A stretch of DNA of 63,245 nt, filler included, from Thraustochytrium aureum (lineage: Eukaryota): NCBI GenBank assembly GCA_012862495.1. It is 6 parts of 4 records of this genome, joined end to end, with 100 filler letters (N's around TTAATTAATTAA, not from the genome) between each part and the next. Parts side by side here need not be neighbours in the genome. Positions count along the whole stretch, not along the records: positions 21,418 to 26,053 come from BLSG01000167.1; 5 more parts are not named here. One strand, 5' to 3'. This document shows positions 21,418 to 26,097 of this stretch, one piece after another (position 1 is the stretch's first letter; every line of letters begins with the position of its first letter). The position numbers and the translations under genes were made by a program. The notes under the pieces were generated by a model. The model worked only from the letters and a program-made list of their open reading frames with translations. It made no database searches and was not told where the DNA came from.

Positions 21418-23272
21418 CATCGCAGTGCTGGACGACCAGCCCGATCTCTTTTACAGGCAGGCCAACGTGTTGGAGTTCAGCGACACGTTCAATCCGATGA
21501 TCGAGAGCAAGCGCGTGGTGCTCATGGCTGTCTCCGTCGCAAACCACAACATGGATGCGCGCACGTTCAGCACTGAAACGCCTAGTTTTGGACTTGCCAA
21601 GCGTGGCTTCTTCTATCAGCGAATCTATGTGGATGAGTCTGGTGTCGAGCACTACTGCCTCCCAGAGTGGTATGCCTACATACGCCTCGTCTGCAGCGCG
21701 GCGGTCTTCAGGGAGTACTTTGCTGCCATGGGGGCGAGCTCCATCACATCGACCAAGTCAGAGAGCGGGTCCAAAAGCGTCGAGTCCGAAATGGAAACCC
21801 AGGTGGACGTTGAAGGCGCCGTCAGCTTGGGGGGCTCCAAGTCAGCCTCCCGTTCACGCGGAACCGACGACAGCAATGTCTTTACCGCGGAATACTCGCG
21901 CCCCCTCGGCCCACCTCATGTGCCGGAAGATCTCGATCTCTTTTTCATCCGAGAGTTCGACTCGGCCCTCAAGAACAAGGGCTTCCTATCCAGGACGATG
22001 AAGGACTTTATTGACGCTGAACACCCGACGCTGAGTCAATTGCGACTCGTCATGTCGCACCACGACACCAGCGAGAGGGCCAAATCGCTCAGCCTCCAAG
22101 TCGCGAGCAAAATCGGCGCTGGCATGAGCAACAAGAAGAGCGTAAAAGCCTCCAAAGTTGTCAACCTGACGCAGGAAATACACGTCACGTTCCACCCCGA
22201 GGAGGCATTTAAGAGCTTCATTCAGGCCAGTGTCACTGTCAACGTCCTCAGTGATCATATCCCTGACATTTTCACCTCCACCAAGCTCACACTGGAGACC
22301 CGCGACCCGCTGACCTACAAGGGCAACATCGGCGAACTCAGCATCCTGGTCGTCGGGGACGTTGGTTCCGGCAAGAGCTCGCTCATACGGAGCCTTCTAC
22401 ATGCCCAGTCGGGCGTGATGGGGGAGCCCACGGAGATGCCGGTGGGGATGCTCATCCGAACCGATGAGCACAAGGAAGGGACGCGGTATGTTCAACAGTA
22501 CGACCTGCTCCGCACGCCGTTCAACGTCCGTGGCGGTCGAGGCGTCTCGGTTGGGTGCATCTCCCTCAGCGACACTGAAGGGATGGGCATTGAGACAAAA
22601 GACTTGCTGCGAATGTCAGACAAGGAAGTCGCGCGGCGCAGCCACAAGTGGACGAAGGCCGAATTCGAAGGAAGTGGGGCCATCCCAATGCCCAAGGTCG
22701 TCCCCAACGCAACGTGGCTCGTTTTTGACGGTCACGAACTCGTCAAGTCATTGTACGACGACGTTGTCGAAGGCGCATTGGTACAGTTTGAACAGCGTCT
22801 GCGGGCGTACGCGGTGTTCCTGGAGCGTTTCCGTGGGGAGCACATCCCCGCTCACCCGCTCGTCGTTGTCTTCACCAAACGCGACTGCATCGAGCGCGAC
22901 TTCCCGCACAAGGCGAACGAGTATCTGGATAAACTGTTTACGTTCACATTCGACACGTTCGACGCTGTCGCCCGTGGCGCCCTATCCAAGATTTTTTCTG
23001 TCGCCAACTACGTGCCCCATGAAATCGAACCTGGCACTTCGCGCACCAAGATGGGCGCTGCCGTCGACCTCCAAGGGCGGCTGGCTACTTCGAAAAGAGC
23101 CCGTACAGACTGGGAGAAACGTTGCGATGGGTGGCAAGCTCAGAACGACGCCCTCCTTCGCGTGGTGAGCGCAACGGTCGAACAAGTCCGCGCCAGGGCC
23201 CAGGATGAGATGAACTCGAGCAGCATCACCAACGACAACTATGCAACGATCGACCAGTGCATTTTTCAGTGA
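21418..23272 (+). CDS. Fusion of an uncharacterised beta-rich (putative pore-forming-like) domain and an IFI44-like P-loop GTPase; 5' partial
   Basis: G1 GDVGSGKS, G2 EGT, G3 LSDTEG, G4 VVFTKRD, then IFSVANY; N-terminal Y.LPEWY...FAAMGASSI followed by S/T/K/G-rich strands. Confidence 0.75.
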
Positions 23273-23283
23273 GACTACGCCAC

Positions 23284-24700
23284 CTAAAAAAGTTTACATT
23301 CATCCGCTTGTTTAGGTGTTGAATGGGGCATGGCTGGGAACTTGGGCGTGACGAGATCCACGGCTTTCAATGAGAACGGAGTGAAGTTCTCACGTGGTTC
23401 GGAGCATGCTCCCTGGCGACGCTGTGGGTTGTCGAACTGGCTCGGCGGGAAATCCCGCACGAACAGCCAACGCGGGTACGTCCTTCGGTAGTCGGCTGCT
23501 TGCCGCAGAAGCTCCAGAGCCACCTCGGGCATCTTCCTCAGCTTTCGTTCCCACCACCCCAAGTAGTTGCCATCGAGCATCAGCTGACACATCGCGGGCA
23601 TTCGATTGATCTCGTCTTCAGCGCGCAGAAAGCGGTTGGTAACATCTTCGAATTCACCAAATCGCTCTTCATTGAACCCCTTCGGAAGGTACCAGTCGCA
23701 CAGCTGCAGATTTCCGCCACAGGCGATCCACATACGCATCAGCGGTTCCTCCATTTCGGCGCAAAAGTAATCTGTCCAATAGAGAAAGCCACTGGTATCG
23801 GTTTTGGCCATCAGTCCAACATCTTGCGTCGGGAGGGCCTCCATGAACGACCCAAGACGATCACGGAAAACAAAGTTGAACTTGTGCACTCCAAGCTCGC
23901 GGTAGGCATGCATCGCGACCTCGATCCGTTCGGGGGTGAATTCAAGATACAAATCACCCTCCTTGTCTGCCAAATCCGAGTTCATGTATGCGACAAAAGT
24001 CCAGTCGATTGCACGCCCAGGGAGCAAGACGGGGAGCTGCTCCTCCAAAGACGTGAAAGCTTGGTGTTTTGACATGACCAATTTCTCAGTTTCATGATGG
24101 AACCAGAAGTAAGGAAAATCCCACTTGTACAGCATCACCACGCCTCGAAGCGCTGTCTTTATGAGTGTCTTCTCCCCTTCCCACAAAAGGGGAAGCGTCA
24201 GCATGGCTGGATCCCTGACGTCTGCTGGGAAGAGCGCCAACCCGCACCGGCAGCAGCACACGTCATCCCCGACCCGCACCAGGTTGAATGTGCGGGTAAA
24301 CGTNNNNNNNNNNNNNNNNNNNNNNNNNNNNNNNNNNNNNNNNNNNNNNNNNNNNNNNNNNNNNNNNNNNNNNNNNNNNNNNNNNNNNNNNNNNNNNNNN
24401 NNNNNNNNNNNNNNNNNNNNNNNNNNNNNNNNNNNNNNNNNNNNNNNNNNNNNNNNNNNNNNNNNNNNNNNNNNNNNNNNNNNNNNNNNNNNNNNNNNNN
24501 NNNNNNNNNNNNNNNNNNNNNNNNNNNNNNNNNNNNNNNNNNNNNNNNNNNNNNNNNNNNNNNNNNNNNNNNNCGCACTGACGGCACCGGAACACCTTCA
24601 GTGCTCCCTCCTCTGGAAGAAGATAAGCCCCCATCTCCGAGTCCTCTTCCACTGCCTGCCCGACAGCCCTCGCCCTCCCGTCATTGCGCGCGTGGGCCAT
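23284..24700 (-). CDS. Hypothetical protein, possibly viral; may span the N gap; Cys motifs
   Basis: 331-aa open frame with protein-like composition; FRCRQC before the gap and CCCRCG after it; stop is 11 nt from the convergent GTPase gene. Confidence 0.55.
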
Positions 24701-24915
24701 CGCTCCCGCTCTCGCTCTTCTCTTCTGTTTCGTGTCTGTTGCACACCTGTTCTGAGCTGCACGGAAGTAGCATGTCCCAATTTAAAAGACCACGCGCGTT
24801 TAGTATAATTTTGCATGATAATTTGTACGATTCATGTAACAACAAGTCTCCATAGTTAGGGTTAGGGTCATGTTCTGCAAAAATACAACACAAGACTCTG
24901 GAGTTCTTTAGTTCT

Positions 24916-25995
24916 TCAGGGACTCAGCAAAATATCAAACTCCCCGCCAGGCTTGCCGTAGCTGATGGCCACACCCAGCGTGCGCGACTCGGCGTCCAGT
25001 CGCAGTCGCTCGAAGCCGTCTAGGCAGCGCGCGACGAGCGCCGCGCTCCTGTCCTCCGAGAAGAGGCCCTTCAGGAACCGAACGCGATGGTCGTTGGAAA
25101 GGCCTACAATGTCGTCGTCCTCGTCGTCCTCGTCGTTGCCGTCGTAGCCATACGAGTTGGCTCCGTGTTGCCTGCGCGTCAACGAGCTGTAAAACGCGTC
25201 GAAGCCCTGCCCAACGTCGGCCGCGGGATCCAAGGTCTTGTCGTACTCGTACATGACAAAACAAACGAGTTGTTTGATGCTCTCGGTGAACCTGTCGCGC
25301 ACGCTGTGCGGCGTACCGCTGGGAGTGGCAAAGGTGTGCCGGAGGCGCGCGGGTAGCGCATCGTCGCGGATCGAAAGTGGGACGGTCTTGAGCACAACTC
25401 GCTCCGCTTGCGCGGCGGCCGCTGCCGATGACGAGTGGGTCTGCTCGCCGTTCAGGCGGCTCGCGCTCAGGATGTCGTCCTTGGTCGGGATCTCCACCAT
25501 GATCGTGTCGCCGGGGCGAATCTCGCGCGGGCCCGTGTTTCGGATCGTGTACGTGCCCCCCACCGCAACGGTGAGTTGGCTCTGCTTGGCGCGGATGTCG
25601 TTCGTGCTCATGTTGCCCGGGGTGAGCGCAATTCCAATGGGCCGGATAGTTTCCATGAGGCGCGCGTTGAGGTCCTCTTCGTCCAGAATGTCGGGCTCGC
25701 CCGCGCGACGCTTGGCGTACAGGCCATTCAGATGCGCCAGGACGGGGATGGCGGCGTTGCTCAACCCGGACGTGTGAAGCCGGTTGGAGTTGAGCACCGT
25801 GTAGACGATGTCGTTGGGCTCGATGCGGGTGACGCCCTCGTCCAGGGTGGCGATCCGGGAGAGCTTGTAGTAGCTCCTCGAGTCAGCCGTCATTCGCGCG
25901 TCCAGGTTGTACTTGTCATACTTGCCCTGCACGACAACTGTGCCCTGCCTGTTCACCTTTCCAAACAATTTATTCAAGTCCCAGGTAGAATCCAT
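24916..25995 (-). CDS. Probable mirusvirus-type capsid triplex protein
   Basis: Intronless 359 aa; IPVLAHLNGL, IRPIGIA, LTVAVGGTYTIRNTGPREIRPGDTIMVEIP and C-terminal RTLGVAISYGKPGGEFDILL resemble my recollection of Mirusviricota triplex motifs. Confidence 0.65.
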   Translation of the reverse strand: MDSTWDLNKLFGKVNRQGTVVVQGKYDKYNLDARMTADSRSYYKLSRIATLDEGVTRIEPNDIVYTVLNSNRLHTSGLSNAAIPVLAHLNGLYAKRRAGEPDILDEEDLNARLMETIRPIGIALTPGNMSTNDIRAKQSQLTVAVGGTYTIRNTGPREIRPGDTIMVEIPTKDDILSASRLNGEQTHSSSAAAAAQAERVVLKTVPLSIRDDALPARLRHTFATPSGTPHSVRDRFTESIKQLVCFVMYEYDKTLDPAADVGQGFDAFYSSLTRRQHGANSYGYDGNDEDDEDDDIVGLSNDHRVRFLKGLFSEDRSAALVARCLDGFERLRLDAESRTLGVAISYGKPGGEFDILLSP

Positions 25996-26097
25996 CGTGG
26001 CTGGCTGGCTCTAGCTAGCTCGCTCTTGGGTAGCTGCAAAAACCAACGCTTTTNNNNNNNNNNNNNNNNNNNNNNNNNNNNNNNNNNNNNNNNNNNN

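What the first reader, a model, noticed from the sequence alone, without database searches (positions are those of the whole stretch)
21418..26053. Probable mirusvirus-derived scaffold (triplex capsid gene)
Seen: three tightly packed ORFs with no evident introns and no housekeeping similarity, an 11-nt convergent junction and an AT-rich spacer. ORF 24916-25995 has GG..TI.NTG...I.PGD and terminal R.LG.A.S..KPG..FDILL motifs. Knowledge: Mirusviricota encode herpes-like HK97 capsids with triplex proteins and occur as integrated or episomal elements in thraustochytrids. Inference: a fragment of an endogenous or persistent mirusvirus. The motif match is from memory, and an N gap separates the triplex gene from the GTPase gene.
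Basis: partly seen in the sequence, partly recalled or inferred. Interest (0 to 1): 0.8.

Follow-up and report, generated by a model that had tools for sequence, protein, structure and literature searches.

The report
Mirusvirus capsid triplex gene in protist
A short piece of a protist genome assembly carries an intact gene whose protein is predicted to fold like the herpesvirus capsid-bracing "triplex 2" protein, most likely left by a mirusvirus (a herpes-related virus of single-celled eukaryotes), which makes it a divergent new example of a known kind of virus-host association.

Summary
ORF 24916-25995 is intact and has about 80 metagenomic relatives at 25-40% identity. Its model is confident (pLDDT 86) and matches herpesvirus capsid chains and named triplex-2 proteins over its full length, though TM-scores are only 0.26-0.44. 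The one relative whose surroundings I could read lies beside an RNA polymerase gene and a probable HK97 capsid gene, which points to a mirusvirus.

The two neighbours, a GTPase-motif ORF and an orphan, are neither shown viral nor shown host. The middle ORF appears to run across the N gap, so the scaffold join is probably real. Tight packing and an AT-rich spacer favour a viral fragment (~0.6). Host-like codon usage allows a lone captured gene (~0.27). Integrated versus episomal could not be tested: no assembly is held and no reads were listed.

Mirusvirus triplex genes in protist assemblies are already published. This scan noted mirusvirus capsid genes in other genomes but no look-alike of this protein. 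New member of a known kind.

The parts
24916..25995 (-). Intact 359-aa capsid triplex subunit 2-like gene (P0001): predicted beta-tulip core with a large helical arm (residues ~172-337)
21418..23272 (+). ORF open at the scaffold edge (617 codons; first ATG 21497). C-terminal part has GTPase motifs G1 GDVGSGKS, G3 DTEG, G4 TKRD. N-terminal ~260 aa unassigned, with a Ser/Thr/Gly-rich stretch. Origin (viral or host) undetermined.
   Evidence: (Rab-like protein 3, E 3.9e-4); no homologs; fold failed
23284..24303 (-). 3' part of an orphan ORF (P0003); begins at the gap edge with an F-x5-L stretch followed by a Cys cluster
24575..24700 (-). Probable 5' part (42 codons from ATG 24700) of the same orphan ORF, ending in CxxC at the gap edge; suggests a zinc-binding motif split by the gap
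   Evidence: inference; pattern chosen after seeing it
23273..23283 (.). 11-nt convergent junction
24304..24573 (.). Assembly gap of 270 N (estimated size)
24761..24915 (.). AT-rich spacer (GC 0.37) 3' of the triplex gene and 5' of the orphan; holds a TTAGGG doublet at 24856-24867 judged not significant
25996..26053 (-). 58-nt leader of the triplex gene up to the scaffold end, with simple motifs that recur elsewhere in the window and a possible splice-acceptor-like T-run + CAG

Best explanation
The scaffold holds an intact gene whose protein is predicted to have the herpesvirus triplex-2 fold, and it is likely a three-gene fragment of a mirusvirus genome resident in this protist. In a virion, two copies of this protein would grip each other through the long helical arm and join one triplex-1 subunit through their beta-tulip cores. 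[quoted passage not shown] Shown here: the intact ORF, its family, the tight gene packing. Predicted: the fold. Inferred from herpesviruses: dimerisation and capsid role. Inferred only: that both neighbours are viral accessory genes, and that the DNA is more likely an integrated remnant than a high-copy episome, since it assembled in pieces as short as the host contigs.
For: Family: 83 hits at E<=0.001 and 50 at E<=1e-10, best E 8.8e-32 at 33% over residues 9-357. Model: pLDDT 86.1, pTM 0.83, strands at both ends around helices 172-337, the layout described for Tri2 in 10.1101/216911 (passages). Foldseek PDB: 29 matches at E<=0.001; all 23 rows shown are herpesvirus capsid entries, best 2.6e-5. 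BFVD: named 'capsid triplex protein 2' at E 1.1e-7 and 1.2e-4; EBV BORF1 (triplex 1, recalled) only at E 0.23. VIA-align: best herpes chains Z 8.2-8.9 with 218-235 residues aligned end to end; chains with triplex-1-like numbering Z 4.9-5.6. Pfam VG27 E 0.0019. Relative locus L001 (28.9% over 374 columns, E 3e-33) also encodes RNA_pol_Rpb1_5 (E 1.7e-23), PIF1 and an 843-aa protein whose Atlas neighbours are phage major capsid proteins (score 0.92-0.93); herpesviruses lack RNA polymerase (PMC10132985 passage). Scaffold about 94% coding if the middle gene spans the gap, spacers 11 and 215 nt; L001 spacers are -1 to 434 nt, 12 of 14 under 100. Lowest-GC spacer in the window. Scaffold GC 0.574 against 0.603-0.644 for the other five. 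Mirusvirus genomes are orphan-rich (128 of 177 genes on CE1) and carry Ras-related GTPases.
Against: TM-scores are below 0.5 (0.26-0.37 PDB, at most 0.44 BFVD) and rmsd is large. The best VIA Z (9.6, 113 residues) is a 136-residue chain of an archaeal tailed virus, and the tool warns that Z near 8 can be a common arrangement. VG27 is below its curated cut-off (18.1 vs 27 bits) and only 3 of 63 aligned members match it. The mirusvirus link rests on 1 locus; the Atlas model of its capsid candidate is poor (pLDDT 0.33). No published mirusvirus HMM was available. Neither neighbour has a viral homolog, and neither has a match in L001. Triplex codon usage fits the host housekeeping set (0.27, like formin, SF1, RCC1), while the neighbours (0.10, -0.11) group with the TIR, WD40 and CRN-like genes on other scaffolds. 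No other viral hallmark among 66 window ORFs scanned of 113 listed.
Confidence: 0.6

Rival explanations
1. A single mirusvirus triplex-2 gene was transferred into host DNA and now sits beside fast-evolving host genes (a GTPase-domain gene and a zinc-motif orphan); the rest of the scaffold is host.
For: Host-like codon usage and GC3 0.82 for the triplex gene; neighbours resemble the TIR/WD40/CRN-like class. Leader motifs recur elsewhere in the window. No second viral gene on the scaffold. Scattered, unexpressed mirusvirus genes without a whole viral genome are reported in Schizochytrium aggregatum (10.64898/2026.07.28.741200, passages).
Against: 11-nt junction against 320 and 348 nt in the host; lowest-GC spacer. 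A persistent mirusvirus can match host GC (AurliV-1 45.0% = host), and capsid genes often show the strongest codon bias (general knowledge), so codon usage does not discriminate. Two host Pfam genes (GFO, epimerase) also score low in the codon test.
Confidence: 0.27
2. The scaffold comes from a virus that is not resident in this host (co-cultured organism or contamination), or from a co-infecting skiavirus that picked up a mirusvirus gene.
For: It is a stand-alone scaffold with no host junction. Skiaviruses carry genes of apparent mirusvirus origin.
Against: Triplex codon usage matches this host. The exchanged genes named in the passages read were accessory genes, not triplex.
Confidence: 0.08
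3. The protein belongs to another herpes-like lineage, or is a phage-type decoration protein with an unrelated helical insert, and is not a mirusvirus protein.
For: Top structural hits are alloherpesvirus proteins and tailed-virus chains. P0001 has a long branch (1.55) and no supported sister among 62 homologs (quick tree).
Against: Its sequence family (29-40% identity) is far closer than any herpes or phage match (7-16%), and one member lies beside RNA polymerase and an 843-aa capsid candidate. No match in 50,697 phage records or PHROGs.
Confidence: 0.05

Closest known systems
Mirusviricota triplex capsid protein 2 (Gaia et al. 2023, PMC10132985; Medvedeva et al., PMC12768974)
   Same: Herpes-like triplex fold; sequence family found in metagenomes; one relative lies with RNA polymerase and a probable HK97 capsid gene.
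   Different: Best relative only 33% identical over the full length; no supported sister among 62 homologs; order not assigned; no direct comparison with published mirusvirus sequences or HMMs was possible.
Thraustochytrid mirusvirus elements AurliV-1 (episome) and AurliV-2 (integrant), Schizochytrium circles, and scattered mirusvirus genes in S. aggregatum and other assemblies (PMC12606086; 10.1101/2023.06.15.545109; PMC10827195; 10.64898/2026.07.28.741200)
   Same: Mirusvirus structural gene inside a protist assembly; orphan-rich, intron-poor surroundings; host-like base composition. Triplex2 markers were reported in 135 genera of eukaryote assemblies.
   Different: Here only 4.6 kb and one hallmark gene; state (episome, integrant, lone gene) unknown. 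Many published markers are short and decayed (median 100-200 aa), whereas this one is full length.
Herpesvirus triplex subunit 2 (HSV VP23, HCMV Tri2, alloherpesvirus ORF27/VG27)
   Same: End-to-end structural alignment, discontinuous beta core with a long helical arm.
   Different: 7-14% identity, TM-score below 0.5, arm geometry differs; host is a protist.
Beta-tulip decoration proteins of tailed viruses (lambda gpD type; 10.1101/216911)
   Same: Core domain matches at Z 7.7-9.6 over 113-157 residues.
   Different: They lack the ~165-residue helical arm and form homotrimers added after capsid expansion.

Membership tests
Herpes-type triplex subunit 2 | Discontinuous beta-tulip core with a large helical arm insertion | tested here: met
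   Predicted model, strands 20-168 and 339-357 around helices 172-337; core matches decoration proteins and whole chain matches herpes capsid chains; feature from 10.1101/216911
Herpes-type triplex subunit 2 | Closer to triplex 2 than to triplex 1 | tested here: met
   BFVD named triplex-2 hits at E 1.1e-7 to 4.2e-3 against BORF1 at 0.23; VIA Z 8.2-8.9 against 4.9-5.6 (PDB chain identity inferred from recalled lengths)
Herpes-type triplex subunit 2 | Curated profile match (Pfam VG27) | tested here: inconclusive
   E 0.0019, 18.1 bits, below cut-off 27; 3 of 63 members
Herpes-type triplex subunit 2 | Arm-mediated homodimer within a 2:1 heterotrimer | not tested
   The complex-prediction queue was full; no job ran
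Mirusviricota | Triplex protein of the mirusvirus sequence family | tested here: met
   28.9% over 374 columns, E 3e-33, to the gene in L001, which lies with Rpb1_5 and an HK97-like 843-aa protein; one locus only
Mirusviricota | Match to published mirusvirus Triplex HMMs, better than to herpesvirus HMMs | not testable with these tools
   No such library held; supplements of PMC10132985 that were searchable gave only cluster labels
Mirusviricota | HK97 MCP with tower, terminase, portal, maturation protease and triplex 1 in the same element | not testable with these tools
   No whole genome held; none among 66 window ORFs scanned against Pfam, which would likely miss them (L001's capsid candidate has no Pfam hit)
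Mirusviricota | Nucleocytovirus-like informational genes (RNA polymerase, PolB) in the same element | not testable with these tools
   Seen only in the relative's locus
Endogenous viral element | Junction with recognisable host DNA | tested here: inconclusive
   Scaffold ends at linkers; neighbours cannot be assigned to host or virus
Endogenous viral element | Read depth at host single-copy level | not testable with these tools
   No sequencing run was listed
Endogenous viral element | Decay (stops, frameshifts, loss of conserved residues); common but not required | tested here: not met
   Unbroken 359-aa ORF; keeps 53 of 66 conserved columns, median 0.77 across the 63 rows, rank 21 (set chosen by similarity to the query)

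The most novel reading that the evidence does not exclude
The host has captured an intact mirusvirus triplex-2 gene, adapted its codons, and keeps it next to an immunity-type GTPase gene, using it as a dominant-negative capsid decoy that poisons assembly of persistent mirusviruses: a protist counterpart of capsid-derived restriction factors.
Probability: 0.06. Interest if true: 0.75.

Novelty: new member of a known kind. Interest (0 to 1): 0.3.

Why it matters
It adds a full-length, divergent mirusvirus structural gene tied to a protist assembly. Most mirusviruses are known only from metagenomes without a host, so a host-linked, long-branch triplex could mark a lineage with a cultivable host. 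The association itself is established. Interest would rise if the virus proves to lie outside the thraustochytrid-associated Soporavirales, or if the gene is a lone, expressed host capture.

Tried and rejected
Word-indexed homolog searches missed the family: 0 hits for P0001 and 2 for the alignment. The Atlas gave no usable hit for P0001 and was closed for the GTPase ORF's N-domain. PDB sequence searches found nothing meaningful for P0001, its profile or the orphan.

Seven IMG/VR scans found no locus: P0008, P0009, P0001, P0003, the L001 capsid candidate and two sub-alignments. Only one metagenome scan was available and it gave one locus.

GTPase ORF. No homologs among 7,991 scored candidates. 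For its N-domain: none in plasmids (51), genome contigs (59), 5 single genomes (72) or two samples of 401 genomes (77, 78). The single-sequence fold failed (pLDDT 30.8) and was not searched. My recollection that this domain resembles a bacterial beta-hairpin, pore-forming-like domain is therefore untested; one paper search on it gave 0. The PHROG terminase hit (E 0.028) and PADLOC mad8 hit (E 0.0026) cover only the P-loop and were rejected. The Atlas SPASM hit for the orphan (0.90) was treated as noise from Cys motifs.

TTAGGG doublet as an integration scar: rejected. The window has 50 period-6 doublets, and the one thraustochytrid telomere unit I read is TTAGG.

L001's 334-aa ORF as triplex 1: no profile match to the triplex-2 alignment (probability 0.1), so left unassigned.

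No sequencing run was listed; this is no evidence either way. The dimer prediction and the Foldseek-independent wide fold search did not run because the queues were full. The careful tree did not finish; the quick tree is quoted.
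Full report
Setting. The window is six unrelated scaffolds joined by artificial linkers, so genes outside 21418-26053 are not neighbours. The other scaffolds carry eukaryotic genes: acetyl-CoA carboxylase, cyclin, RCC1, TIR, WD40, tubulin-tyrosine ligase, NAD kinase, P450, Myb, formin and SF1 (66 of the 113 ORFs listed were scanned, chosen to skip obvious shadow frames). No whole genome is held.

Observation. The three ORFs, the 11-nt junction, the AT-rich spacer and both motifs are real. 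The junction is much tighter than the two host convergent junctions measured (320 and 348 nt). The spacer is the lowest-GC 150-nt stretch of the window. Lack of introns is not informative, because host genes here are also long open frames.

The triplex gene. P0001 (359 aa) has a weak Pfam match to VG27, the Ictalurid herpesvirus 1 ORF27 family (E 0.0019, below cut-off); that ORF27 is triplex 2 is recalled. An exhaustive phmmer search gave 83 hits. I aligned 62 of them with the query and left out 21 that were partial, weak or repetitive; three of those were seen to be unrelated repeat proteins. Of 29 hits looked up, none carries an informative name; sources are JGI/IMG, Logan and ENA, and NCBI for two. 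The model is confident (pLDDT 86.1, pTM 0.83): a strand-rich core from both ends of the chain with a helical insert at about 172-337.

Structure searches. In Foldseek against the PDB, all 23 rows shown are herpesvirus capsid entries (best E 2.6e-5), but TM-scores are 0.26-0.37. Against BFVD, the top hits are amphibian and fish herpesvirus proteins, unnamed entries and named triplex-2 proteins (E 4.2e-8 to 1.2e-4); EBV BORF1 ranks 47th. VIA-align of 747 Foldseek-ranked chains aligns the model end to end with herpes chains numbered to 306-317 (Z up to 8.9, 218-235 residues, rmsd 6-7). It aligns less well with chains numbered like triplex 1 (Z 4.9-5.6). The core matches short chains of tailed-virus capsids (best Z 9.6, 113 residues, rmsd 2.7). 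This is the pattern expected for triplex 2: a beta-tulip shared with decoration proteins plus a large arm that dimerises two copies (10.1101/216911, passages). The scores are modest, and the conclusion rests on their agreement. The gene shows no decay: it keeps 53 of 66 conserved columns. In a quick tree it has a long branch and no supported sister.

Mirusvirus or herpesvirus. One relative's locus could be read (L001, 19 kb of a 36.5-kb metagenome contig). Its homolog is 28.9% identical over 374 columns. The locus also encodes an RNA polymerase large-subunit domain and a PIF1 helicase, and an 843-aa protein whose Atlas neighbours are major capsid proteins (the Atlas model is poor). An HK97-type capsid with triplex and RNA polymerase is the mirusvirus combination; herpesviruses lack the transcription machinery (PMC10132985, passages). 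This is one locus, and no mirusvirus HMM was available.

The neighbours. The plus-strand ORF has GTPase motifs G1, G3 and G4 and a weak match to Rab-like protein 3 (E 3.9e-4). No full-length homolog was found. Its N-terminal domain stays unassigned after six searches and a failed fold. The middle ORF has no credible match. Its frame is open to the gap. On the far side, a 42-codon frame from ATG 24700 ends in CxxC at the gap edge, and the near side begins with F-x5-L and a Cys cluster. This pairing occurs in 1 of 324 frame pairs at the window's 18 gaps. The pattern was chosen after seeing it, so it is suggestive only, but it argues that the join is real and the gap perhaps much shorter than 270 nt.

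Viral fragment or lone gene. For a fragment: about 94% coding, spacers like those of L001, the low-GC spacer, the lowest scaffold GC, and the known orphan richness and small GTPases of mirusviruses. For a lone gene: triplex codon usage equals that of host housekeeping genes while the neighbours group with TIR, WD40 and CRN-like genes, the leader has motifs seen elsewhere in the window, and no second viral gene is recognised. Codon usage discriminates poorly, since AurliV-1 has host GC and two host enzymes also score low. I put the fragment at 0.6 and the lone gene at 0.27. The scaffold's contigs (2.9 and 1.5 kb) are as short as host contigs, which fits host-level coverage better than a high-copy episome; this is inference, as no reads were listed.

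What is known. Mirusvirus markers, including 625 Triplex2 sequences in 135 genera, are reported from eukaryote assemblies (PMC10827195, Results section and passages). Episomal and integrated elements are described in Aurantiochytrium (PMC12606086 and 10.1101/2023.06.15.545109, passages). Scattered unexpressed genes are described in Schizochytrium aggregatum (10.64898/2026.07.28.741200, outline and passages). Orders are defined in PMC12768974 (one section and passages). From 10.1101/2025.04.19.649669 I read passages only. Whether this very sequence is among the published markers could not be checked.

Verdict. Observation confirmed, triplex interpretation supported, scaffold-wide and endogenous claims open. 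New member of a known kind; interest 0.3.

Noticed in passing
window 15496-18987 (-): TIR domain followed by a P-loop (NACHT-like, by eye) and WD40 repeats: an NLR-like immune gene, broken by a gap.
   Followed up: no
window 26156-27925 (-): 590-aa partial ORF with a weak AAA_22 match (E 0.088) that resembles Crinkler-type P-loop plus restriction-endonuclease proteins (resemblance recalled, not tested). It is on the next scaffold, not linked to the triplex gene.
   Followed up: no
window 21419-22207 (+): N-terminal domain of the GTPase ORF has a helix followed by Ser/Thr/Gly-rich alternating stretches (41% S/T/G in residues 100-165), which I recall from pore-forming-like beta-hairpin domains. 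No homolog found and the fold failed.
   Followed up: partly
window 62197-63243 (+): Highly regular WD40 repeat array on a 1-kb scaffold.
   Followed up: no
window 4651-4997 (+): The ORF after the gap behind acetyl-CoA carboxylase reads like an IscA iron-sulfur assembly protein (CGCGESF motif, recalled), not the end of ACC.
   Followed up: no
L001 5021-18264: Mirusvirus-type block: RNA polymerase large-subunit C-terminal part as a separate ORF, triplex 2 homolog, 334-aa possible triplex 1 (unconfirmed), 843-aa capsid candidate, and a 300-aa multi-pass membrane protein without a Pfam match.
   Followed up: partly
window 11264-14151: Two similar non-coding-looking stretches (ORFs 11264-11965 and 13441-14148 share long words), possibly a dispersed repeat.
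   Followed up: no
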